This document shows, in pieces, positions 24,464-40,593 of a stretch of 64,000 nt of DNA; position 1 is the stretch's first letter, and each line of letters opens with the position of its first letter. The DNA comes from an uncultured Planctomycetota bacterium (GTDB lineage: Bacteria > Planctomycetota > Planctomycetia > Isosphaerales > Isosphaeraceae). Location of the stretch: assembly GCA_963737655.1 (NCBI GenBank), contig CAVTTN010000002.1:6752001-6816000 (forward strand). Direction: 5' to 3'. The notes beneath the pieces were generated by a model that was not told where the DNA came from, ran no database searches, and saw only the letters and a program-made list of their open reading frames with translations. The translations under genes were made by a program, and so were the position numbers.

Positions 24464-25125
24464 TCGAGGCACGGAGCAGCGAAGGCGCGAAGAGGCTCAC
24501 GGGACGTTCCCCAAACATCAAGCGGTCGGACATCGCCCCGGCCCCAGCCGGAACCTGTTGCAAGACACCATCGCGACCGACCGCCCCAACGATCACCCCT
24601 CCTCGAATTTCTTCAAAAGCGTCGCCACAAGACCCCGATCGAGGAGCGCCCGGGGACCACACGCAGCCCCGCCGCGCAAGGCCCAAAGTGCGCCGGTTTC
24701 GGACCCATTTTTGTCCCCGAAACTATTCGGAGCCAATCGCCCGATGTTCCAGGAGGGAAATCGGTTCGGGAAACCTCACAAAAACATCCAAACACCAGCG
24801 TGTTTCCCCGCGCAGAAGTGACTGCGCATCGAAAACGGCCGTTTTTCCGCCGTTTGCGCGCTTTTTGGGGAAAATGTGTTGTCAAATATTGTCAACTTCC
24901 CAGGTTCGAGAAAATTAGCGGAAATCATGGAGTCCAGTCGGCACGATCGAAAACCCCAATAGTAGCGAGGAATCGGGGCCGCACGACGGAAGGCCGCGCG
25001 ACTCGCCTGGTCCCCTTCGCACCAGGTTTTCACGACCGCCGGGGAAACGGGTCGGAAGCCCGAAATAAGTTTATTTAGGCGATTTACGCGTTTCGCCGCT
25101 CCGGCCTCTTTGGTCTCGACGACCC

Positions 25126-26082
25126 TCAGGGGGTGTCCAGGGGGCTGCGGACCCCGAGCGGGCCGGACTGAAGAACGTGGGTATAAATCATGGTAGTGCG
25201 AACATCTTCATGCCCCAGGAGTTCCTGGACCGTCCGGATGTCGCGCCCTTCTTCCAGGAGGTGGGTGGCGAAGCTATGGCGGAGCGTGTGGGGGCTGGCC
25301 GGCTTGACCAGGCCCGCGCGGAGGGCGGCCCGTCGCACCGCCCTCTGCAGCGCCTGCTCTCCCACGTGGTGACGGCGGACCGCCCCCGATCGCGGATCGA
25401 CCGACTTCGTCCCCGCGGGGAAGACGTACTGCCAGCCGAGCGAGCGATCCGCCTCGGGATACTTCCTCGCCAGGGCGAACGGCAGGTGGACCCGCCCGAA
25501 CCCCTGGCGGAGGTCCTGCGAATGGAGGTCCTTCACCCGGGCGACCTGGCGCCGAAGCGCCTCGACCAGCGCGACCGGGAGCACCGTCACGCGGTCCTTC
25601 TGCCCTTTGCCGTCGCGAACGACCAGGTGCTTCTGCCCGAAATCCACGTCCTTGACGCGCAAGCGGACGCATTCCATCAGCCGGAGTCCGGACCCGTAAA
25701 GCAGCCCGGCCATCAGCCCGAACGTCCCGTCGAGCTGCGCCAGAAGAGCGCGAACCTCCTGGCGAGTCAGGACCACCGGCAGCCGCTCGGGCCTCCGGGC
25801 CCTGGGCAGGTCGCCAAACTCCTCCAGAGGACGCTTCACGACCTCCCGGTAGAGGAACAACAGGGCGCTGAGTGCCTGGTTCTGGGTCGAGGCCGCCACA
25901 TTCCGATCCACCGCCAGATGGGTCAGGAAGGCCCCAACCTCCACCTCGCCCATTTCCTCGGGATGCCGCTTCTCGTGAAACAAGATGAACTGCTTCGCCC
26001 AGCGGACATAAGCATCCTCAGTGCGAAGGCTATAATGCAACGTCCGGGCAGCCTCCCGGACCCGGTCCAGCAGCATCGACAT
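25126..26082 (-). CDS. intI: Integron integrase
   Basis: [31 protein letters not shown], IntI-specific insert ([10 protein letters not shown]...WQYVFP...RRHH), [21 protein letters not shown]. Confidence 0.98.
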
Positions 26083-26179
26083 GGTCGTGTCGTCCCGATC
26101 AACGAATCAAGGAAGAGAAAATCCAAAGAAAATCCTTGCAAGGCGAACTCCCCGCCGGCAAAATCAACAACCGGCCCGA

Positions 26180-26231
26180 GATTATACGTCCGAAACGACG
26201 TGATAAACCACATCATTTCGGACGTATAATC
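26180..26231. promoter_or_regulatory. Palindrome carrying back-to-back TATAAT boxes (candidate Pint and Pc)
   Basis: ATTATACGTCCGAAA 26181-26195 and TTTCGGACGTATAAT 26216-26230. Confidence 0.6.
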
Positions 26232-26239
26232 CCGCAAAT

Positions 26240-26282
26240 TCGGGGATTCTGCGTCACTTTCGATGTCTACTTCATGTTAGGC
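26240..26282 (+). other. attI site (core GTTAGGC at 26276-26282; left limit approximate)
   Basis: First GTTRRRY after intI with no attC stem upstream; cassette 1 starts here. Confidence 0.8.
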
Positions 26283-26513
26283 GGCTCAGGAGTCGAAGCC
26301 TTCGGTCGTGCTCGTCGTCGGCCTCGCCGGTCGCGCCTCGGCTCGACGACGCCATCGGTCGGGCCCCTGGAGTCGGCCTCGGCGGTGGTGCGCGTCGTCG
26401 CCCTCGCCGGCCGCGCCCCCGAGGTCGGGCCCGTCGGCCGGCGCCCCCTTGCCAACGCCGTCGGTCCGTGCCAGGATCGTCGGTGTCGGCGCGTGGGGCG
26501 TCGCCGGGGCGCC

Positions 26514-26613
26514 GCCTAACCCGGCGCTGCAGCGGACCCGGCCCGCGGTCGACGATCACTCTCCTCTCAATCTCGCCGGGCGCGGGCCGGTCCGCTGAGC
26601 TTTGTCGTTAGGC
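26514..26613 (+). repeat. attC1 (intact)
   Basis: GCCTAAC...GTTAGGC with CAGCGGACC/GGTCCGCTG arms. Confidence 0.92.
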
Positions 26614-26978
26614 GGCTGACTCACGGGTCATTCGCAAGGTCTGATGGCAGCGTGCGACGTCGCCGGGGGCCCGGTCGGTCCCGTGCTTCGAGCGTCGTCG
26701 CCGCCGTGTCATCGCGCATCGCCGGTGGCCTCGGTCCTCACCGCGGTGGTGTCGTTGCCGTGGGGGCTCGCGTGCGTTCGTTGCCGCGGGGGTCTTGCGT
26801 CGTGCTCACGCGCCGCCTCCCCGTGAACTCTTCGCGCCGGCGGTTCGGCATCGGTTGATACTATGTGGGCATGATCATCGATCGGCCCGCATCCCCCCCG
26901 GCCCCCGCGACGACGGGGACGGCCCGATCCGGCTCGGCGGGGCTTGCGGTCGGGCGCCCCGCCTCCGACCCGTCGCCC

Positions 26979-28331
26979 TCACGACGGCGGCGACGGCGGC
27001 GACTTCGCCACCAGCTCGTAGCCCAGCGACCTCGCCTTGCGCCGCAGCGACCGCTCCTGCTTCGCGCGCACCTCGGCCTCGTACTCCGCCAGCGACCTCG
27101 ACACGTACTCCTCGCCGTGCCTGAGCATCCGGTACACCAGCCGCGACAGCTTGTGCGCCGTCGCCGTGATCGCCCCCCGGCCGCCGATCCGGCCCTTGAT
27201 CCGCCGGTAGAACTGGCCCGTCGCCGTCGCCGTCCGGCCCGCCGCCTGCGCCGCCATCCGCAGCGCCTGACCCACCCGGTTCTTGCCCTTGCGGGGCGTG
27301 CGACGCCGCTCGGTCTTGTTGCTCCGGTCGGTCCGCGGGCAGAGGCCCAGCCAGCTGGCGAAGTGCTTCTCGCTCGGGAACCGCCCCACGTCGCCGCCGA
27401 GCTCGGCCAGGATCACCGTCGCCGTCGTCGCGTCGATCCCCTCGATGGCCGTCAGGTCCACGCCGATCGCCCGGGCCAGCTTGGCCGGGGCGTCGAACCG
27501 CACGTCGTTGGCCTTGCGGCCGCGCTTGCGGGGCCTCGCCGCGATCGGCCGGCCTTCGGAGCGGTCGGGCAGGCGGTCCAGCTCCTCGGCGATCCGGGCG
27601 TCGCACTCGTCGACCTGGCGGTGGAGGTAGTGGTACAGGTCGGACGCCTGCCTCAGGGCGAACAGGTGCTCGGGCCGCCAGGTGCCCTCCAGGGCCCGGG
27701 CGATCTCCGCCTCGTCCCGGGCGCACCGCTCGTGCCGCAGCGCGGCCAGCTTCGTGGCGTCCCGCTCGCCGGCGAGGATCGCGGCGATGATCGCCGTGCC
27801 GGTGACGCCCGTGATGCTGCTGACGACCTCGGTCAGCTTCACATTCATCTGCTCCAAAGCCTTCTGCATGTGCTGGACGTGGTGCGAGGCGTACCGCACG
27901 AGCATCTGCCGCTGCCGCCAGTAGCCGCGCAGGGCCAGGACGGCCCCGGGCGGGCGGAAGGACGGGCGGAGCAGGCCGCACGAGTGGAGGCGCTGGAGCC
28001 ACTGGCAGTCGAGCCGGTCGGTCTTGGGCCGGGCGCCGCAGTGGCTGGCCTGGCTCGGCTCGATGAGGAAGACCTCGAAGCCGCGCGATTCGAGCAGCTC
28101 GAACAGGGGGATCCAGTAGACGCCGGTGGACTCCAGGACCACCGAGGTGACGCCCTCGGCCCGGAACCAATCGGCCAGGGCGTGGAGGTCGGCCGAGCAG
28201 GCGCCGAAGGTGCGGACCCGTCCGGGCCCGACGCAGGCGACGTGGTTGTCGGAGTGGACGTCGACGGCGGCGGCGTGGGGGTGGACGACCGGCAGGGACG
28301 CGTCGGGATCGGGGGGCGTGCGGCGACTCAT
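26979..28331 (-). CDS. IS110-family transposase
   Basis: DEDD residues (AVDVH, LESTGVYW, KTDRLD); IEGID, FPSEKHFASWLGLCP...S, TATAHKLSRLVY. Confidence 0.96.
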   Translation of the reverse strand: MSRRTPPDPDASLPVVHPHAAAVDVHSDNHVACVGPGRVRTFGACSADLHALADWFRAEGVTSVVLESTGVYWIPLFELLESRGFEVFLIEPSQASHCGARPKTDRLDCQWLQRLHSCGLLRPSFRPPGAVLALRGYWRQRQMLVRYASHHVQHMQKALEQMNVKLTEVVSSITGVTGTAIIAAILAGERDATKLAALRHERCARDEAEIARALEGTWRPEHLFALRQASDLYHYLHRQVDECDARIAEELDRLPDRSEGRPIAARPRKRGRKANDVRFDAPAKLARAIGVDLTAIEGIDATTATVILAELGGDVGRFPSEKHFASWLGLCPRTDRSNKTERRRTPRKGKNRVGQALRMAAQAAGRTATATGQFYRRIKGRIGGRGAITATAHKLSRLVYRMLRHGEEYVSRSLAEYEAEVRAKQERSLRRKARSLGYELVAKSPPSPPS

Positions 28332-28540
28332 GGCGAGGGCTCCGGCGGGTGGGGGGCCAAGCCGTCGCGGGCCGAGAGGGGGTCCGGGGACGAGGTAGTC
28401 TCCCCGACGGGAACGTCGCGGGGCCGTGTTGACACGGCGCCGCGGGTCACCAATGATGGGGCCACGGCCTCTCGGGCCAAGCTAACCTGCGGGCGGCGAG
28501 CACCAGGGAGATGACGGCCGGGAGGCCCGCGGCGGCGACG
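28332..28540 (-). ncRNA. Candidate bridge/seek RNA of IS copy 1 (limits approximate)
   Basis: Non-coding region 5' of transposase; target match CTAACCT 28482-28488 and GGCGGC 28492-28497; end match TCCCCG 28401-28406; minus-strand TACGAT at 28544-28549. Confidence 0.65.
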
Positions 28541-28602
28541 CCGATCGTACCGCGCCCCGGTTCACGTCCGTCGGGGAGCGGTCGCAGGCCGCGCGGAGAG
28601 TT

Positions 28603-28698
28603 AACCTTGCGCTGCAGCGGACCCGGCCACGGGCCGCGCCTTGTGTCCTTTCCGGCTCGTCGGTCCGTGGACCGGTCCGCTGAGCTTTGGCGTTAGGC
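28603..28698 (+). repeat. attC2 (part downstream of IS)
   Basis: AACC...GTTAGGC. Confidence 0.9.
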
Positions 28699-28908
28699 GG
28701 CTGACTCACGGGTCATTCGCGAGGCCCGTTCGCAGCGAAGCAAGCGACGTCGCCGGCGGCTCGGTCGGTCCCGTGCTTCGAGCGTCGTCACCGCCGTGTC
28801 GTCGAACATCGCCGCGGGCATCGGTCCTCACCGCCGCGGGTTCGTTGCCGTGGGGTCTCGCGTGCGTTCGTTGCCGTCGGGGTCTTGCGTCGTGCCTTCG
28901 CGCCGCCT

Positions 28909-29288
28909 CTTCGTGAACTCTTTGGCTGGGAACGGCCATCGACGCGCGACACTACCCCAACCCCAGGCTTTGTGGCCGGGCAGCGGCGAGGTCCGGGTAG
29001 CAAACCGACGGATTCAAGAGCGGCGGACGAGGCGCGGGCCGAGAGGGGAGTCGGTTACGTTTGCAGTCTCTTCGACGGGAACATCCCCGCGAGTCGGCTC
29101 GCGGGGCGTCGCCAATGACCGGATCACGACCTCTCGGGCCAGGCTAACCTACGGGCAGGGAGCACCAAGGTGGAGACGGCCGGGAGGCCCGCGCCACACT
29201 CAGGCTACGCCGCGCCGGGTCGGCGGGCAAGTCGTCCCCGACCCCCGTTCACGCCCCGTCGGGAGCGGACGAAGGCCGCAGGATGGTT
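28909..29288 (-). mobile_element. 380-bp non-autonomous IS110-like mini-element M1 in attC3
   Basis: CTTCGTGAACTC...GGATGGTT between GCCT and AAC; homologous to IS non-coding region. Confidence 0.92.
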
Positions 29289-29384
29289 AACCTTGCGCTG
29301 CAGCGGACCCGGCCACGGGCCGCGTTCTTTGTTCTTTCACGCTCACAGGTCCGTGGACCGGTCCGCTGAGCTTTGGCGTTAGGC
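29289..29384 (+). repeat. attC3 (downstream part)
   Basis: AACC...GTTAGGC. Confidence 0.9.
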
Positions 29385-29408
29385 GTCTTCGCAGCGGAGG
29401 GGCACGCG

Positions 29409-29855
29409 GTGGGGATCACTCCGGCGACGCGGAAGCCGGTCCACCTCCTGACGGCTGCCGATCTCGCGGCGTTCCCGGTCTGGGAGTACGCCGACGATGA
29501 GGAGTCCGTCGAGGGTCGGGATGAGACCTGGATCCGCCCTGTCCCCGTCGAAGTCATGCCTTCCCGGAGCTATGCCATCGTCGCGGCGGACTTCGAGGCT
29601 GCTTGCGGTCGTCGCTTCCAGGGGTATGTCTTCGTCTCCACGTTGGAGGGCGCCCCCGACGCATGCCAGGGCGTCATCTGGTCAGGTTCGTCGGGCCTCT
29701 TCGTCGCTAACCCGGAGGCTGTCGTCTACAAGGGATCGCGGGCTGAGTTGCTCGCAGGGCTGGGCGTCGGCGAGCATGAGTTGTTCCCCCTGTCCTTCCG
29801 TCCGCGCGTTCCGGTCGAGGGTATGCAAGGGCTCTGGTCAGGCGTGTTACCCTAA
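29409..29855 (+). CDS. Cassette 4 hypothetical protein
   Basis: GGAGG RBS, GTG start, fills cassette, stop just before attC. Confidence 0.75.
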   Translation: MGITPATRKPVHLLTAADLAAFPVWEYADDEESVEGRDETWIRPVPVEVMPSRSYAIVAADFEAACGRRFQGYVFVSTLEGAPDACQGVIWSGSSGLFVANPEAVVYKGSRAELLAGLGVGEHELFPLSFRPRVPVEGMQGLWSGVLP

Positions 29856-29856
29856 C

Positions 29857-29958
29857 GCCTAACCCGGCGCTGCAGCGGACCCCGGCCACGGGCCGCGCTT
29901 TCTCTTCTGTTGTAGCTCAGTGGTCCGTGGCCGGGTCCGCTGAGCTTGGTCGTTAGGC
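29857..29958 (+). repeat. attC4 (intact)
   Basis: GCCTAAC...GTTAGGC. Confidence 0.92.
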
Positions 29959-29977
29959 GTCAGGGGGCGATCTCGCC

Positions 29978-30421
29978 GTGAGCGTCAAAGTCCTCGCGCT
30001 CGACCTTGAGCGAACGCTGATCGATGACGCCCTGAGCGCCCGCCCACGGCCCGGCCTCCGCGATTTCCTCGCCTTCTGCGACGAGAGCTTCACGCGGGTC
30101 GCCATCTACACCACGGTCGAGGAGACCGACGCCCGCGAAGTCATTGATGAACTGGCCCGTGAGGGCCACGTCACTCAGGCCCTGCTAGCGCGGCTGGAGT
30201 ACATCGATTGGTCGGGCGAGCACAAGGATCTTGCGTATGTGCCCGGCGTCGCCGCGGAAGAGGTGGTGCTCGTCGATGACGACGCCGGTTGGATCCGGCC
30301 GGATCAGCGAGGGAGCTGGGTCGCCATCAAGCCCTGGGACGGCGGGCCGGACGGCGAGTTGCCCCGCATCAGGTCAATACTCCAGGCCCTGGTCGCCGGT
30401 GTGGCCGCGCCGGATGCCTAA
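29978..30421 (+). CDS. Cassette 5 HAD/NIF-type phosphatase-like protein
   Basis: LALDLERTL, RPGLRDFL, KDL, VVLVDD; stop is the attC TAA. Confidence 0.8.
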   Translation: MSVKVLALDLERTLIDDALSARPRPGLRDFLAFCDESFTRVAIYTTVEETDAREVIDELAREGHVTQALLARLEYIDWSGEHKDLAYVPGVAAEEVVLVDDDAGWIRPDQRGSWVAIKPWDGGPDGELPRIRSILQALVAGVAAPDA

Positions 30422-30515
30422 CCTCGCGCTGCAGCGGACCCGGCCCGCCGCGGCGTTTTCTGGTATCATCAAGCCTTCACTTGGCGGTCCGGTCCGCTGA
30501 GCTTTGGCGTTAGGC
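30416..30515 (+). repeat. attC5 (intact)
   Basis: GCCTAAC...GTTAGGC. Confidence 0.92.
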
Positions 30516-30557
30516 GGCTCGACCTCAACCGTGGACGACGTGCACGATGACCCCTCG

Positions 30558-30977
30558 ATGGAGATACGCTCCTGCCACGGCAGGCGTGGCCTCCGCTTCC
30601 ACAGCCGGCGCGGAGACTACTTCCACGCGAGCGTCGAGGGTGACGGCCCGAGTGCCTCCGTGCGGGTCTGGGGCTACACCGATTGCCACCTCCTCGTCGA
30701 CCTCTTCGAGTCGATCGCCCACGACTGGCGCGGCTGGCAAGGCGAGCGTTCCTGGTCCTCCATCGAGGATGAGTTCCGCATCGGTGCCACCACCGACAAG
30801 GCGGGCCATGTCACCCTCTCGGTTGTGCTTGCTCACTGTGACGGGATGGACGACTGGCGGCTCTCGGTGCCGGTCTTCACCGAGGCCGGACAGCTCGAAA
30901 AGATCGCCCGAGAGGTCGCTCGCTTCTTCTCCGGCGATGCGAGCGGCCCCCCGCCCGCAGATGCCGCCTCTTCGTGA
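30558..30977 (+). CDS. Cassette 6 protein, DUF6228-like
   Basis: LFESIAHDWRGWQGERSWSSIE...GHVTL; stop lies inside M2; family recalled, not searched. Confidence 0.7.
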   Translation: MEIRSCHGRRGLRFHSRRGDYFHASVEGDGPSASVRVWGYTDCHLLVDLFESIAHDWRGWQGERSWSSIEDEFRIGATTDKAGHVTLSVVLAHCDGMDDWRLSVPVFTEAGQLEKIAREVARFFSGDASGPPPADAASS

Positions 30978-31349
30978 ACTCTTTGGCTGGGAACGGCCAT
31001 CGACGCGCGACACTACCCCAACCCCAGGCTTTGTGGCCGGGCAGCGGCGAGGTCCGGGTAGCAAACCGACGGATTCAAGAGCGGCGGACGAGGCGCGGGC
31101 CGAGAGGGGAGTCGGTTACGTTTGCAGTCTCTTCGACGGGAACATCCCCGCGAGTCGGCTCGCGGGGCGTCGCCAATGACCGGATCACGACCTCTCGGGC
31201 CAGGCTAACCTACGGGCAGGGAGCACCAAGGTGGAGACGGCCGGGAGGCCCGCGCCACACTCAGGCTACGCCGCGCCGGGTCGGCGGGCAAGTCGTCCCC
31301 GACCCCCGTTCACGCCCCGTCGGGAGCGGACGAAGGCCGCAGGATGGTT
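30970..31349 (-). mobile_element. Mini-element M2 in attC6
   Basis: Same 380-bp sequence and insertion point. Confidence 0.92.
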
Positions 31350-31807: not shown

Positions 31808-32187
31808 CTTCGTGAACTCTTTGGCTGGGAACGGCCATCGACGCGCGACACTACCCCAACCCCAGGCTTTGTGGCCGGGCAGCGGCGAGGTCCGGGTAGC
31901 AAACCGACGGATTCAAGAGCGGCGGACGAGGCGCGGGCCGAGAGGGGAGTCGGTTACGCTTGCAGTCTCTTCGACGGGAACATCCCCGCGAGTCGGCTCG
32001 CGGGGCGTCGCCAATGACCGGATCACGACCTCTCGGGCCAGGCTAACCTACGGGCAGGGAGCACCAAGGTGGAGACGGCCGGGAGGCCCGCGCCACACTC
32101 AGGCTACGCCGCGCCGGGTCGGCGGGCAAGTCGTCCCCGACCCCCGTTCACGCCCCGTCGGGAGCGGACGAAGGCCGCAGGATGGTT
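31808..32187 (-). mobile_element. Mini-element M3 in attC7
   Basis: Same 380-bp sequence (C allele). Confidence 0.92.
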
Positions 32188-32566: not shown

Positions 32567-32583
32567 CCGCCGTGCGACCGCCT

Positions 32584-34367
32584 CCCCGTGAACTCTTCGC
32601 GCCGGCGGTTCGGCATCGGTTGATACTATGTGGGCATGATCATCGATCGGCCCGCATCCCCCCCGGCCCCCGCGACGACGGGGACGGCCCGATCCGGCTC
32701 GGCGGGGCTTGCGGTCGGGCGCCCCGCCTCCGACCCGTCGCCCTCACGACGGCGGCGACGGCGGCGACTTCGCCACCAGCTCGTAGCCCAGCGACCTCGC
32801 CTTGCGCCGCAGCGACCGCTCCTGCTTCGCGCGCACCTCGGCCTCGTACTCCGCCAGCGACCTCGACACGTACTCCTCGCCGTGCCTGAGCATCCGGTAC
32901 ACCAGCCGCGACAGCTTGTGCGCCGTCGCCGTGATCGCCCCCCGGCCGCCGATCCGGCCCTTGATCCGCCGGTAGAACTGGCCCGTCGCCGTCGCCGTCC
33001 GGCCCGCCGCCTGCGCCGCCATCCGCAGCGCCTGACCCACCCGGTTCTTGCCCTTGCGGGGCGTGCGACGCCGCTCGGTCTTGTTGCTCCGGTCGGTCCG
33101 CGGGCAGAGGCCCAGCCAGCTGGCGAAGTGCTTCTCGCTCGGGAACCGCCCCACGTCGCCGCCGAGCTCGGCCAGGATCACCGTCGCCGTCGTCGCGTCG
33201 ATCCCCTCGATGGCCGTCAGGTCCACGCCGATCGCCCGGGCCAGCTTGGCCGGGGCGTCGAACCGCACGTCGTTGGCCTTGCGGCCGCGCTTGCGGGGCC
33301 TCGCCGCGATCGGCCGGCCTTCGGAGCGGTCGGGCAGGCGGTCCAGCTCCTCGGCGATCCGGGCGTCGCACTCGTCGACCTGGCGGTGGAGGTAGTGGTA
33401 CAGGTCGGACGCCTGCCTCAGGGCGAACAGGTGCTCGGGCCGCCAGGTGCCCTCCAGGGCCCGGGCGATCTCCGCCTCGTCCCGGGCGCACCGCTCGTGC
33501 CGCAGCGCGGCCAGCTTCGTGGCGTCCCGCTCGCCGGCGAGGATCGCGGCGATGATCGCCGTGCCGGTGACGCCCGTGATGCTGCTGACGACCTCGGTCA
33601 GCTTCACATTCATCTGCTCCAAAGCCTTCTGCATGTGCTGGACGTGGTGCGAGGCGTACCGCACGAGCATCTGCCGCTGCCGCCAGTAGCCGCGCAGGGC
33701 CAGGACGGCCCCGGGCGGGCGGAAGGACGGGCGGAGCAGGCCGCACGAGTGGAGGCGCTGGAGCCACTGGCAGTCGAGCCGGTCGGTCTTGGGCCGGGCG
33801 CCGCAGTGGCTGGCCTGGCTCGGCTCGATGAGGAAGACCTCGAAGCCGCGCGATTCGAGCAGCTCGAACAGGGGGATCCAGTAGACGCCGGTGGACTCCA
33901 GGACCACCGAGGTGACGCCCTCGGCCCGGAACCAATCGGCCAGGGCGTGGAGGTCGGCCGAGCAGGCGCCGAAGGTGCGGACCCGTCCGGGCCCGACGCA
34001 GGCGACGTGGTTGTCGGAGTGGACGTCGACGGCGGCGGCGTGGGGGTGGACGACCGGCAGGGACGCGTCGGGATCGGGGGGCGTGCGGCGACTCATGGCG
34101 AGGGCTCCGGCGGGTGGGGGGCCAAGCCGTCGCGGGCCGAGAGGGGGTCCGGGGACGAGGTAGTCTCCCCGACGGGAACGTCGCGGGGCCGTGTTGACAC
34201 GGCGCCGCGGGTCACCAATGATGGGGCCACGGCCTCTCGGGCCAAGCTAACCTGCGGGCGGCGAGCACCAGGGAGATGACGGCCGGGAGGCCCGCGGCGG
34301 CGACGCCGATCGTACCGCGCCCCGGTTCACGTCCGTCGGGGAGCGGTCGCAGGCCGCGCGGAGAGTT
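32584..34367 (-). mobile_element. IS110-family element copy 2 (1784 bp) in attC8
   Basis: Same length and ends as copy 1, identical translation. Confidence 0.95.
32744..34096 (-). CDS. IS110-family transposase
   Basis: Identical protein to 26979-28331. Confidence 0.96.
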   Translation of the reverse strand: MSRRTPPDPDASLPVVHPHAAAVDVHSDNHVACVGPGRVRTFGACSADLHALADWFRAEGVTSVVLESTGVYWIPLFELLESRGFEVFLIEPSQASHCGARPKTDRLDCQWLQRLHSCGLLRPSFRPPGAVLALRGYWRQRQMLVRYASHHVQHMQKALEQMNVKLTEVVSSITGVTGTAIIAAILAGERDATKLAALRHERCARDEAEIARALEGTWRPEHLFALRQASDLYHYLHRQVDECDARIAEELDRLPDRSEGRPIAARPRKRGRKANDVRFDAPAKLARAIGVDLTAIEGIDATTATVILAELGGDVGRFPSEKHFASWLGLCPRTDRSNKTERRRTPRKGKNRVGQALRMAAQAAGRTATATGQFYRRIKGRIGGRGAITATAHKLSRLVYRMLRHGEEYVSRSLAEYEAEVRAKQERSLRRKARSLGYELVAKSPPSPPS

Positions 34368-34654: not shown

Positions 34655-35034
34655 CTTCGTGAACTCTTTGGCTGGGAACGGCCATCGACGCGCGACACTA
34701 CCCCAACCCCAGGCTTTGTGGCCGGGCAGCGGCGAGGTCCGGGTAGCAAACCGACGGATTCAAGAGCGGCGGACGAGGCGCGGGCCGAGAGGGGAGTCGG
34801 TTACGTTTGCAGTCTCTTCGACGGGAACATCCCCGCGAGTCGGCTCGCGGGGCGTCGCCAATGACCGGATCACGACCTCTCGGGCCAGGCTAACCTACGG
34901 GCAGGGAGCACCAAGGTGGAGACGGCCGGGAGGCCCGCGCCACACTCAGGCTACGCCGCGCCGGGTCGGCGGGCAAGTCGTCCCCGACCCCCGTTCACGC
35001 CCCGTCGGGAGCGGACGAAGGCCGCAGGATGGTT
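34655..35034 (-). mobile_element. Mini-element M4 in attC9
   Basis: Same 380-bp sequence (T allele). Confidence 0.92.
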
Positions 35035-37528: not shown

Positions 37529-37900
37529 ACTCTTTGGCTGGGAACGGCCATCGACGCGCGACACTACCCCAACCCCAGGCTTTGTGGCCGGGCAGCGGCG
37601 AGGTCCGGGTAGCAAACCGACGGATTCAAGAGCGGCGGACGAGGCGCGGGCCGAGAGGGGAGTCGGTTACGCTTGCAGTCTCTTCGACGGGAACATCCCC
37701 GCGAGTCGGCTCGCGGGGCGTCGCCAATGACCGGATCACGACCTCTCGGGCCAGGCTAACCTACGGGCAGGGAGCACCAAGGTGGAGACGGCCGGGAGGC
37801 CCGCGCCACACTCAGGCTACGCCGCGCCGGGTCGGCGGGCAAGTCGTCCCCGACCCCCGTTCACGCCCCGTCGGGAGCGGACGAAGGCCGCAGGATGGTT
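37521..37900 (-). mobile_element. Mini-element M5 in attC13
   Basis: Same 380-bp sequence (C allele). Confidence 0.92.
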
Positions 37901-39158: not shown

Positions 39159-39538
39159 CTTCGTGAACTCTTTGGCTGGGAACGGCCATCGACGCGCGAC
39201 ACTACCCCAACCCCAGGCTTTGTGGCCGGGCAGCGGCGAGGTCCGGGTAGCAAACCGACGGATTCAAGAGCGGCGGACGAGGCGCGGGCCGAGAGGGGAG
39301 TCGGTTACGCTTGCAGTCTCTTCGACGGGAACATCCCCGCGAGTCGGCTCGCGGGGCGTCGCCAATGACCGGATCACGACCTCTCGGGCCAGGCTAACCT
39401 ACGGGCAGGGAGCACCAAGGTGGAGACGGCCGGGAGGCCCGCGCCACACTCAGGCTACGCCGCGCCGGGTCGGCGGGCAAGTCGTCCCCGACCCCCGTTC
39501 ACGCCCCGTCGGGAGCGGACGAAGGCCGCAGGATGGTT
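39159..39538 (-). mobile_element. Mini-element M6 in attC15
   Basis: Same 380-bp sequence (C allele). Confidence 0.92.
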
Positions 39539-39953: not shown

Positions 39954-40593
39954 ACTCTTCGCGCCGGCGGTTCGGCATCGGTTGATACTATGTGGGCGTG
40001 ATCATCGATCGGCCCGCATCCCCCCCGGCCCCCGCGACGACGGGGACGGCCCGATCCGGCTCGGCGGGGCTTGCGGTCGGGCGCCCCGCCTCCGACCCGT
40101 CGCCCTCACGACGGCGGCGACGGCGGCGACTTCGCCACCAGCTCGTAGCCCAGCGACCTCGCCTTGCGCCGCAGCGAACGCTCCTGCTTCCGCCTCACCT
40201 CCGCCTCGTACTCCGCCAGCGACCTCGACACGTACTCCTCGCCGTGCCTGAGCAGCCGGTACACCAGCCGCGACAGCTTGTGCGCCGTCGCCGTGATCGC
40301 CCCGCGGCCGCCGATCCGGCCCTTGATCCGCCGGGGGGTCAAAAAGGGGACGGGGGGTCAAAAAGGGGACGGAGCGAATAAATTCAGCTTTTTGCATTTT
40401 GCCGCGTCTCATCCAGGCCGAACTTATTCGCTCCGTCCCCTTTTCGGCCCCAAGCTAACCTGCGGGCGGCGAGCACCAGGGAAGGGACGGCCGGGAGGCT
40501 CGCGACGGCGTGCCCCAGCGTATCGCGCCCGGTGGTCGGGGCCACCCCCGGTTCACGTCCGTCGGGGAGCGGTCGGAGACGGCGCGGAGAGTT
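39946..40593 (-). mobile_element. Internally deleted, diverged IS110 copy 3 in attC16
   Basis: Both ends and transposase 3' end (40106-40332) kept; middle replaced by 40333-40450. Confidence 0.9.
40333..40444. repeat. REP/MITE-like inverted repeat at the deletion junction
   Basis: AAAAGGGGACGGAGCGAATAA 40361-40381 and exact complement 40424-40444; 19-nt tandem 40333-40370. Confidence 0.8.

What the first reader, a model, noticed from the sequence alone, without database searches (positions are those of the whole stretch)
28332..29288. Bridge-RNA logic readable in the sequence: target guide and donor guide co-varying with element ends
Seen: the IS non-coding region holds CTAACCT (28482-28488), equal to the target core and right flank, followed after 3 nt by GGCGGC, the reverse complement of the left flank GCCGCC. 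The mini has CTAACCT-acg-GGC (29144-29156). A second motif, agtc-TCCCCG-acgggaac in the IS (28401-28406), equals its end TCCCCG; the same position in the mini reads agtc-TCTTCG-acgggaac (29069-29074), equal to its end TCTTCG. The mini's CATCC (29082-29086) also complements its other end GGATG. A GGCCGAGAGG/CCTCTCGGGCC stem brackets the donor motif in both. On the minus strand the target motif precedes the donor motif, the order known for the IS621 bridge RNA. Inference: two naturally orthogonal donor specificities on one scaffold, with unusually close half-guides.
Basis: partly seen in the sequence, partly recalled or inferred. Interest (0 to 1): 0.9.

Follow-up and report, generated by a model that had tools for sequence, protein, structure and literature searches.

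The report
Recombinase-less mini-element carrying its own bridge RNA
An IS110-type jumping gene and a short derivative without a recombinase gene each encode a guide ("bridge") RNA that spells out both the integron site they insert into and their own ends, and the derivative uses a different end code, so one enzyme may serve two separately addressed elements.

Summary
Two of its four guide readings hold and two do not.

The region holds an IS110-family element (window 26818-28601, minus strand) and a 380-bp mini element with no recombinase gene (28908-29287). Each encodes a roughly 175-nt RNA with two stem-closed loops, supported by covariation in 24 relatives.

- **Target guide:** AGGUUAG (plus-strand CTAACCT) equals the left target flank plus core.
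- **Donor guide:** CGGGGAG in the IS and CGAAGAG in the mini equal each element's own right end. Both relations recur across about 30 distinct relatives and beat permutation controls.
- **GGCGGC "half-guide":** this is the loop and invariant stem of a scaffold hairpin, so the "unusually close half-guides" reading fails.
- **The mini's CATCC match:** it has no counterpart in the IS and no family support.

Three further points emerged.

- The target is the attC site of a chromosomal integron. 35 of 51 AGGTTA-type sites are occupied and 0 of 14 GGGTTA/CGGTTA-type sites.
- The guide order is the IS1111 type, although the RNA lies upstream of the recombinase gene, and the core is AG.
- RNA-only minis occur in other genomes.

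That the two donor codes do not cross-react is inferred, not shown.

The parts
26818..28601 (-). IS110-family insertion sequence, 1784 bp, with one base (A in IS sense) ambiguous at the junction. It is inserted in an attC-like site between GCC and TAAC.
   Evidence: Six full copies in the genome share these ends. The flanks are the two halves of the attC repeat.
26979..28331 (-). Recombinase gene, 450 aa.
   Evidence: Pfam DEDD_Tnp_IS110 E=1.9e-17 and Transposase_20 E=5.9e-18. Distant match to the IS621 transposase 8wt6_A, E=1.5e-10.
26817..26828 (-). Right end of the IS. In IS sense it reads GTTCAC GGGGA followed by flank G. The last 7 nt, CGGGGAG (26817-26823), equal the donor guide. GTTCACG (26822-28) is an inverted repeat of CGTGAAC in the left end.
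28360..28537 (-). Bridge RNA of the IS, 178 nt: outer stem P0, target loop (P1 closing) and donor loop (P2 closing).
   Evidence: Covariance model R1 scores 126.2 bits. The structure is supported on 24 relatives: 89.3% of cells paired against 38-48% when slid, 25 of 40 pairs changed on both sides, 0 of 500 shuffles as good. MFE z-score -2.60.
28481..28489 (-). V2, the target guide on the 3' side of the target loop: C-AGGUU-AG-C, which is the left target flank plus the AG core.
   Evidence: It matches the empty attC sequence AGGTTA-GGC.
28490..28505 (-). Pt, the inner hairpin of the target loop: UGGUGC-UCGCC-GCCCG. It is scaffold, not a guide.
   Evidence: Helix 3 is 100% paired, with 2 compensatory changes. 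The loop letters differ in relatives that have the same V2. Complementarity of 5 nt or more to the right flank occurs in only 6 of 53, two of them this IS itself.
28506..28513 (-). V1, on the 5' side of the target loop: CAUCUCCC. This is the family's right-target guide position.
   Evidence: Columns 33, 32, 31 and 30 complement core position 2 and RT+1 to RT+3 at 0.45-0.53 against about 0.25 expected. In this IS the fit to GCGGC is poor.
28397..28407 (-). V4, the donor guide on the 3' side of the donor loop: U-CGGGGAG-ACU.
28373..28474 (-). Donor loop, closed by P2 (28468-28474 pairs with 28373-28379), with inner helices Pd and P3.
   Evidence: helices 4 and 5. P3 has a wholly different sequence in the mini but still pairs.
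28602..28700 (+). Remainder of the attC-like site split by the IS. TAACCT at 28602-28607 is the left target flank.
28908..29287 (-). Mini element, 380 bp, with no recombinase gene. There are 28 copies in the genome.
   Evidence: No ORF related to the recombinase is present. All 28 copies are flanked by attC halves.
29027..29199 (-). Bridge RNA of the mini, 173 nt. V2 is 29143-29151 (U-AGGUU-AG-C), V4 is 29065-29075 (U-CGAAGAG-ACU), V1 is 29168-29175 and Pt is 29152-29167.
   Evidence: R1 scores 133.3 bits. MFE z-score -3.59. Coordinates.
28907..28918 (-). Right end of the mini. In IS sense it reads GTTCAC GAAGA followed by flank G. The last 7 nt, CGAAGAG (28907-28913), equal the mini's own V4.
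   Evidence: 28 of 28 copies.
25126..26082 (-). Integron integrase gene (context). The cassette array with attC sites runs rightward from about 26.5 kb.
   Evidence: TIGR02249 scores 474.6 bits against a cut-off of 265 at G000:C2:6777135-6778073, which is window 25135-26073. The ORF is listed.
32583..34366 (-). Second identical IS copy in the window, with its RNA at 34125-34302. Further mini RNAs lie at 31088-31260, 31926-32098, 34773-34945, 37639-37811 and 39277-39449.

Best explanation
The finding covers the left end of an IS110-family insertion sequence and a neighbouring non-autonomous mini element. Each encodes a bridge RNA on the minus strand.

The RNA has an outer stem that encloses two stem-closed internal loops. 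In the first (target) loop, the 3' segment AGGUUAG has the sequence of the left half of the insertion site plus an AG core. [quoted passage not shown] In relatives, the 5' segment of that loop complements the right half. In the second (donor) loop, the 3' segment has the sequence of the element's own right end plus core: CGGGGAG in the IS and CGAAGAG in the mini.

The recombinase made by the IS would load either RNA. Each RNA then brings its own element's joined ends to an AGGTTA^GGC attC site. The mini therefore moves with a borrowed enzyme but supplies its own guide RNA, and its donor code differs from the IS's at two adjacent positions.

Shown here: the RNA structure, the guide-to-flank and guide-to-end relations with their covariation across relatives, the copy numbers and the site occupancy.

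Inferred: transcription, loading in trans, circle formation, and that the two donor codes do not cross-react.
For: - **Protein:** the recombinase has both IS110 domains.
- **RNA family:** the covariance model finds the RNA upstream of the recombinase gene in nearly all of the 79 related loci, with 87 hits in all, and in 37 of 121 genomes of the order.
- **Structure:** 89.3% of cells paired, 25 of 40 pairs with changes on both sides, 0 of 500 shuffles as good. The single-sequence folds recover P0, P1, P2 and P3.
- **Target guide:** the own 6-mer lies 55-115 nt upstream in 17 of 31 against 7 of 930. Two copies in one genome differ in V2 (CAUUC against CAUUU), and each variant is found beside a matching flank (L006, L007), but L008 and L009 carry the other variant, so only 2 of those 4 copies match exactly.
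- **Donor guide:** the own 7-mer lies at the right end in 12 of 15 against 15 of 210. In all 9 elements whose ends were fixed independently by comparing copies, V4 equals the terminal bases.
- **IS against mini:** 28 of 28 minis have CGAAGAG in both the RNA and the end, and 7 of 7 IS-type copies have CGGGGAG in both. A mini in another assembly has UGAAGAG in its RNA and CATGAAGAG at its end. A mini in a genome of the same genus keeps CGAAGAG in both places.
- **Site choice:** 35 of 51 TAACCT-type attC arms are occupied against 0 of 14 TAACCC/TAACCG-type arms.
- **Promoter hint:** a TANNNT hexamer ends about 7 nt before the RNA in 34 of 51 distinct upstream regions, against 1 of 51 in a control segment.
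- **Literature:** bridge RNA supplied in trans works for IS621 (PMC11208160, passages seen).
Against: - No guide for the left-end (RD) half of the donor could be found. No RNA column covaries with RD+1 to RD+14.
- V1 of this IS and of the mini fits the attC right flank poorly.
- The left junction always reads AA although both guides read AG.
- The LT and LD junctions in most relatives were located with the guides themselves. Those identities are partly circular, and only the permutation test and the 9 copy-defined ends are independent.
- There is no direct evidence of transcription. No sequencing run holds this organism; the best share of words was 0.07.
- In ISPpu9, mixed circles between IS ends and MITE ends do form (PMC12288879), so a few mismatches need not block cross-reaction.
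Confidence: 0.8

Rival explanations
1. The mini is an ordinary deletion-derived MITE that the IS's own bridge RNA moves. Its RNA gene is a decaying relic, and the match between its RNA motif and its end is hitch-hiking or chance.
For: Simple deletion derivatives that keep the parent's ends and the parent's donor guide do exist in relatives (L085:5703, L087, L088, L089). Mixed circles in ISPpu9 show some tolerance of end mismatches.
Against: - The mini's end differs from the IS guide at 2 of 7 positions next to the core, and its own RNA carries exactly the compensating letters in 28 of 28 copies.
- The RNA keeps all helices, with a completely re-coded P3 and 4 pairs changed on both sides. It scores higher on the family model than the IS RNA does, 133.3 against 126.2 bits.
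- The GAAGAG lineage persists in at least 3 genomes, and a further matched change (U with T) occurs in one of them.
Confidence: 0.12
2. The reader's original layout is right for this lineage: CTAACCT and GGCGGC, 3 nt apart, are the two target half-guides.
For: In this IS, GCCGCC(C) is complementary to 7 nt of the right flank GGCGGC(G), whereas V1 fits that flank badly.
Against: - GCC of that motif is part of the GCCCG stem, which is conserved whatever the target.
- The other three letters lie in an apical loop that reads CCCU in the mini, CUUC in L001 and L081, and CGUU in L002, all of which share the same V2.
- Across relatives this hairpin reaches 5 nt of complementarity in 6 of 53. V1 is shorter and reaches 4 nt in 19 of 53, against 7 of 53 for the hairpin.
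Confidence: 0.07
3. The internal copies of the end and flank sequences are protein-binding or recombination-site repeats in DNA, not RNA guides.
For: A 6-7 bp inverted repeat (CGTGAAC/GTTCACG) does link the two ends. Transcription is not shown.
Against: - The motifs sit in the unpaired sides of loops of a structure held by compensatory changes.
- Conserved U-G pairs (24 of 24 at two positions) fit only the minus-strand RNA.
- The same logic is proven experimentally for IS621 and for seekRNAs.
Confidence: 0.03

Closest known systems
IS621 bridge RNA and recombinase (IS110 group; PMC11208160 and PMC11208158, passages seen)
   Same: - A DEDD plus Tnp recombinase.
- The RNA is encoded in the left end, upstream of the gene.
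- A target loop is followed by a donor loop, each being stem, guide, hairpin, guide, stem.
- Guides pair with opposite strands of the two halves and overlap a 2-nt core.
- V2 runs on into the first base or two of the left end in 16-18 of 32 relatives, which resembles a handshake guide.
   Different: - The protein is only remotely related (E=1.5e-10).
- The core reads AG (AA on the left junction) on the RNA-sense strand instead of CT. Read on the other strand this is CT/TT.
[quoted passage not shown]
- An outer stem P0 encloses both loops.
- No Rfam family matched in window 25000-31000.
IS1111-family seekRNA elements, including the attC-targeting ISKpn4 and ISPst6 (PMC11187229, passages seen)
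   Same: - The top-strand complement lies 5' of the bottom-strand match.
- Some members insert at one end of integron attC sites.
- The sub-terminal inverted repeats are longer than in IS621.
   Different: - Their RNA lies downstream of the recombinase gene, whereas here it is upstream.
- Their seekRNA was described as 70-100 nt, whereas here it is about 175 nt with a clear second (donor) loop.
- Relatedness of the proteins was not tested here.
ISPpu9 and MITEPpu9 of Pseudomonas putida (PMC12288879; abstract, section 13 and passages seen)
   Same: - Recombination at an AG dinucleotide.
- Insertion into repeated palindromes.
- A small companion element without a recombinase gene that carries an sRNA gene resembling the IS's 5' region.
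- The companion has slightly different end boxes, forms its own circles, and is often fused behind the IS, as in L001.
   Different: - Ssr9 was read as a regulator or hitch-hiker, not as the MITE's own bridge RNA.
- Ends differ by 1-3 mismatches, with mixed circles observed.
- Here the mini RNA is a full two-loop bridge RNA whose donor guide changes with its end.
- I did not see their supplementary tables.
ISPpu10 (bioRxiv 10.64898/2026.03.19.712850, passages seen)
   Same: A bridge-RNA IS aimed at a repeated stem-loop-forming intergenic element, with trans mobilisation of LE-cargo-RE shown experimentally.
   Different: It has a CT core and the IS621 guide layout, and no RNA-bearing mini was described in the passages seen.

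Membership tests
IS110-family bridge recombinase system (IS621 type) | Recombinase with a RuvC-like DEDD domain and a Tnp domain | tested here: met
   PF01548 E=1.9e-17 and PF02371 E=5.9e-18. Catalytic residues were not checked one by one.
IS110-family bridge recombinase system (IS621 type) | Structured non-coding RNA in the left end, upstream of and co-directional with the gene | tested here: met
   R1 hits lie upstream of the gene in nearly all of the 79 related loci. Covariation is shown.
IS110-family bridge recombinase system (IS621 type) | Two internal loops, the first matching the target and the second matching the element ends | tested here: met
   V2 with LT and V4 with LD. V1 with RT is weaker. 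The RD guide was not found.
IS110-family bridge recombinase system (IS621 type) | [quoted passage not shown] | tested here: not met
   Here the 3' sides carry the left-half sequence. The sides are swapped, which is equivalent to the IS621 layout read on the opposite DNA strand.
IS110-family bridge recombinase system (IS621 type) | CT core on the RNA-sense strand at both junctions | tested here: not met
   AG on the right and AA or AG on the left. The A is nearly invariant and the second base varies, mirroring the statement that T is invariant and C is looser.
IS110-family bridge recombinase system (IS621 type) | RNA is expressed and a circular intermediate forms | not testable with these tools
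   No run holds this organism. Contigs from relatives in RNA libraries are no proof.
IS1111 group | Guide RNA downstream of the recombinase gene | tested here: not met
   The RNA lies 28 nt upstream of the start codon.
IS1111 group | Top-strand complement lies 5' of the bottom-strand match in the RNA | tested here: met
   V1 (complement of RT) precedes V2 (identical to LT). The criterion comes from PMC11187229.
IS1111 group | Sub-terminal inverted repeats of 7-17 bp | tested here: inconclusive
   A 6-7 bp repeat, CGTGAAC/GTTCACG. In the left end it lies about 40 nt inside the terminus.
Non-autonomous miniature element (MITE-like, as MITEPpu9) | No recombinase gene, many near-identical copies, ends related to those of an autonomous partner in the same genome | tested here: met
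   380 bp, with 28 copies of which 25 are at least 97.6% identical. The ends are related to the IS's but distinct from them.
Integron attC site (the target) | Imperfect palindrome bounded by RYYYAAC and GTTRRRY, in same-strand arrays next to intI | tested here: met
   21 intact 99-102 bp copies, all on the plus strand. intI scores over its cut-off and lies adjacent. Folding of the bottom strand and extrahelical bases were not tested.

The most novel reading that the evidence does not exclude
The mini belongs to a lineage of transposons made only of a bridge RNA. They parasitise an IS110-family recombinase but carry a complete guide RNA of their own, with a private donor code (GAAGAG ends against GGGGAG ends). 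This makes them genetically independent of the IS's RNA, lets them outnumber it 28 to 6, and lets them persist across genomes.

Nature would then already hold pairs of non-cross-reacting donor codes for one recombinase. The family would also be an intermediate between the IS110 and IS1111 layouts: RNA upstream of the gene but IS1111 guide order, with the core read on the other strand.
Probability: 0.45. Interest if true: 0.75.

Novelty: new variant of a known kind. Interest (0 to 1): 0.62.

Why it matters
Bridge recombinases are being developed as programmable tools for inserting DNA. This locus offers four things.

- **A natural matched pair.** One recombinase with two RNAs whose donor codes differ by two adjacent bases, with matching ends. 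That is a ready-made test of how sharply the donor loop discriminates, and a possible starting point for using two donors side by side.
- **A natural read-out of target discrimination.** Sites reading AGGTTA are occupied and sites reading GGGTTA or CGGTTA are not.
- **A different kind of non-autonomous element.** Such elements of this family can carry the guide RNA itself. This changes how these insertion sequences and their small companions, such as Ssr9 of ISPpu9, should be read.
- **A possible effect on the host.** Over half of this genome's attC-like sites of the matching type are interrupted, which may freeze parts of its integron cassette arrays.

Tried and rejected
- **RD-side donor guide.** Column-by-position identity and complement scans and stacked 4-mer dot plots gave no diagonal. 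The only recurrent hits were trivial conserved strings.
- **V3 5' part as complement of the sub-terminal right end.** CCGUG with CACGG in the IS and UCGUGA with TCACGA in the mini looked like a further matched change. It fails in the congeneric mini (L080, which has C where U is needed), in the L001 mini, and in seven relatives that share one right end but differ in V3. Rejected as chance.
- **Discontinuous pairing of the mini's V3 with its left end** (GGU.. GAU). This has no counterpart in the IS. Rejected.
Rejected as guides, as set out in the observation check and the first-reader verdict.
- **Second base of the tail after V2.** The IS has CU and the mini CC, matching left ends CT and CC. 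The type-B IS copies, however, read CC or CA with the same end, so only the first base is consistent.
- **Junction promoter.** I found no sigma-70-like pair across the joined right and left ends by eye.
- **Rfam.** No family matched in window 25000-31000.
- **Sequencing runs.** All 24 listed runs held 0.07 or less of the words. Laying 4 of them gave only pieces of relatives, one RNA-library contig covering 28388-28536 at about 94% likeness. This is no evidence of expression or habitat.
- **Earlier findings of this scan.** None near this place.
- **Literature on RNA-bearing minis.** Searches and a term search inside one preprint found only MITEPpu9. Supplements and figures were not seen.

Full report
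**What is there.** The finding spans the left, non-coding end of an insertion sequence and a small repeat next to it.

- The ORF at window 26979-28331 (minus strand, 450 aa) has both domains of IS110-family recombinases. It is only remotely similar to the solved IS621 protein (E=1.5e-10).
- Comparing copies within the genome defines the element as window 26818-28601. There are 6 full copies (3 identical, 3 at 96.6%) plus 2 broken ones.
- The neighbouring repeat is a 380-bp element at 28908-29287 with no recombinase gene. It has 28 copies, 25 of them at least 97.6% identical to the window copy.
- Its central part is 82% identical to the IS left end.

**The observation.** CTAACCT occurs 14 times in the window against 0.89 expected, always in copies of this RNA gene or in the target repeat.

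**The RNA.**

- I fetched 79 loci encoding relatives of the recombinase, 41-84% identical. Similarity to the IS left end runs from about 60-80 nt inside the end to just before the start codon.
- An alignment of 24 distinct sequences supports one structure. An outer stem P0 encloses two units. P1 closes a loop that holds a small hairpin Pt. P2 closes a loop that holds helices Pd and P3.
- On this structure 89.3% of cells pair, against 38-48% when partners are slid. 25 of 40 pairs change on both sides, and 0 of 500 shuffles do as well.
- Invariant U-G pairs fit the minus-strand RNA only.
- A covariance model built from the alignment gave 87 hits over the window and the 79 loci, upstream of the recombinase gene in nearly all loci. 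It found 36 copies in the window's genome and hits in 37 of 121 genomes of the order.
- Single-sequence folds of the IS RNA and the mini RNA recover P0, P1, P2 and P3, with z-scores of -2.60 and -3.59.

**Which segments are guides.** Four segments vary freely among relatives: V1 and V2 flank Pt, and V3 and V4/V5 flank Pd/P3.

- *V2 (AGGUUAG here).* It equals the DNA just outside the left end plus the first base of the right flank, which is the uninterrupted target AGGTTA^GGC. Intact copies of that target exist in the genome. Across relatives, the element's own 6-mer lies 55-115 nt upstream of its RNA in 17 of 31 distinct cases, against 7 of 930 when RNAs and loci are mismatched. The misses are mostly one-mismatch cases. 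In one genome, copies differ in V2 (CAUUC against CAUUU). Each variant is found beside a matching flank (L006, L007), but L008 and L009 carry the other variant, so 2 of those 4 copies match exactly.
- *V4.* It equals the last bases of the right end plus core. The own 7-mer is present there in 12 of 15 distinct cases against 15 of 210. It is typically preceded by AGTTC/AGTTA/AGTTT. In all 9 elements whose ends I fixed independently by comparing copies (this IS, this mini, and the L006, L010, L015, L039, L041, L052 and L054 groups), V4 matches the terminal bases. These include CGGGGAG, CGAAGAG, UGGGGAG, UUGGGAA, UCAGGAG, UUGGAAG and UUAGAAG.
- *V1.* It complements the second core base and the first three bases of the right flank, at 0.45-0.53 against about 0.25 expected. 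This is an independent signal, because junctions were not located with V1.
- *Left-end (RD) half of the donor.* No segment could be tied to it.

- The target motif and the donor motif are confirmed as V2 and V4.
- GGCGGC is the complement of the Pt loop (UCGCC) plus the first bases of the GCCCG strand. That strand is conserved whatever the target. The loop letters differ in the mini and in L001, L002 and L081/L082, which share the same V2 and, where seen, the same kind of target. It is therefore scaffold. The two target half-guides are separated by a 16-nt hairpin, as in known bridge RNAs.
- The mini's GGAUG lies where P3 meets Pd. The IS has no equivalent and the family shows no signal there.

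**IS against mini.**

- Both share the target guide.
- Their right ends differ, CACGGGGA against CACGAAGA, and so do their V4 segments, in the same two positions. This holds in 7 of 7 IS-type and 28 of 28 mini copies.
- Of the 40 structural pairs, 34 are identical, 4 are changed on both sides and 2 are unpaired in one RNA. P3 is entirely re-coded yet still pairs.
- The GAAGAG lineage also occurs in a genome of the same genus (L080) with the same RNA-end match.
- It also occurs in another assembly (L001), where the RNA reads UGAAGAG and the end CATGAAGAG. There the mini is fused directly behind an IS.
- Other genomes hold RNA-only derivatives that keep their parent's ends and guide (L085:5703, L087, L088, L089). 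I chose 10 loci partly because they looked unusual, so the share of RNA-only copies among them (about half) is not a frequency.

**The target.** The 100-bp 'palindromes' are attC-like.

- They are bounded by GCCTAAC and GTTAGGC, and 21 intact copies all lie on one strand in a few arrays.
- An integron integrase gene scores 474.6 bits against a cut-off of 265 at window 25135-26073, facing away from the array.
- The elements sit between GCC and TAAC of the first boundary.
- Of attC arms reading TAACCT, 35 of 51 are occupied (8 IS-type, 27 mini), 14 are empty and 2 are other. Of arms reading TAACCC or TAACCG, 0 of 14 are occupied. One mini lies in a diverged arm that this count missed. This fits discrimination at the first guide position. 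Both arm types occur in the same arrays, but I did not control for array history.

**Comparison with known systems.**

[quoted passage not shown] Here the sides are swapped and the core is AG, with the A nearly invariant and the second base looser.
- Read on the opposite DNA strand, this is exactly the IS621 scheme: CT, with T invariant and C looser. So the RNA and gene are inverted relative to the polarity of the crossover site. This is my inference.
- The seekRNA paper reports that IS1111-family RNAs have the top-strand complement first, that the IS110 member has the reverse, and that some IS1111 members target attC. This family therefore combines the IS1111 guide order and an attC target with the IS110 position of the RNA.
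- ISPpu9 also recombines at AG. Its companion MITEPpu9 carries an sRNA related to the IS's 5' region and has slightly different end boxes. That sRNA was not read as the MITE's own bridge RNA in the text I saw.
- I found no paper describing minis that carry their own bridge RNA (searches; term search). Figures and supplements were not available to me, so diversity panels may already show the swapped layout.

**What remains open.**

- Transcription, loading in trans, circles and non-cross-reaction of the two donor codes are all inferred.
- A TANNNT hexamer ends about 7 nt before the RNA in 34 of 51 distinct upstream regions, against 1 of 51 in a control segment. This suggests an internal promoter.
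- V1 of this IS and of the mini fits the attC right flank poorly. The reverse complement of the IS's V1 instead matches the element's own last bases plus core (GGGAG).
- In this clade the left junction always reads AA and the right junction AG, though both guides read AG. The second core base therefore always stays with the right-hand partner. A 2-nt staggered exchange with random segregation would not predict this.

Noticed in passing
window 25126-26082 (-) and the array from about 26500 rightward: A complete chromosomal integron: an integrase gene over the family cut-off, with a same-strand array of 100-bp attC-like sites. Similar arrays lie at 4-5 other genomic places, and those are where all IS and mini copies cluster.
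   Followed up: partly
window 28429-28457 (+): A sigma-70-like promoter (TTGACA, 17 nt, AATGAT; 10 of 12 matches, 0.0 expected in shuffles) lies antisense inside the IS bridge-RNA gene and points out of the element. Its -35 box is the P3 loop. The mini lacks it. This recalls the antisense sRNAs Asr9 and Asr10 of ISPpu9 and ISPpu10.
   Followed up: no
all left and right junctions (e.g. window 28600-28603 and 26817-26819); L006-L011, L069, L075, L003: The left junction reads LT-AA-RD and the right junction reads LD-AG-RT in every copy, although both guides read AG and empty sites read A-G. The second core base always segregates with the right-hand partner.
   Followed up: partly
L001:1-2273: An IS whose right end is joined directly (GGGG-AA-CTCGCC) to the left end of a mini with its own RNA. 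The pair is flanked as a unit by one target, like the tnp-ssr9 composites of ISPpu9.
   Followed up: partly
L085:5703-5880, L087:2554-2730, L088:2537-2714, L089:2535-2712, L080:2524-2695: Bridge-RNA copies with no recombinase gene within 2.5 kb in five other genomes. Three share a conserved internal segment and the ends of their local IS.
   Followed up: partly
window 40326-40510 (-) and G000:C2:1680927-1681665: Broken IS copies whose RNA or gene region is interrupted by tandem copies of a GGGGCCGAAAAGGGGAC-like unit.
   Followed up: no
window 26608-26820 and 28693-28909: The roughly 210-bp stretches between an attC site and the next occupied attC are 86% identical paralogues, apparently non-coding cassettes.
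   Followed up: no
window 28548-28554 with 26822-26828; relatives: A 6-7 bp inverted repeat (CGTGAAC in the left end, GTTCACG at the right end). In distant relatives the left copy (GGAACTT/GTAACTT) overlaps a -35-like TTG about 35 nt before the RNA.
   Followed up: no
L086:1709-2300 (G115): Long arrays of GGGACGCAGGGGTCAG(ACTTGGTTTA)-like repeats lie next to distant, partly truncated copies of the RNA. They may be a repeated target or debris.
   Followed up: no
window 28388-28536: A contig from a soil RNA library matches this stretch at about 94% and diverges exactly at 28536, the predicted 5' end of the RNA. It comes from a relative and does not prove transcription.
   Followed up: no
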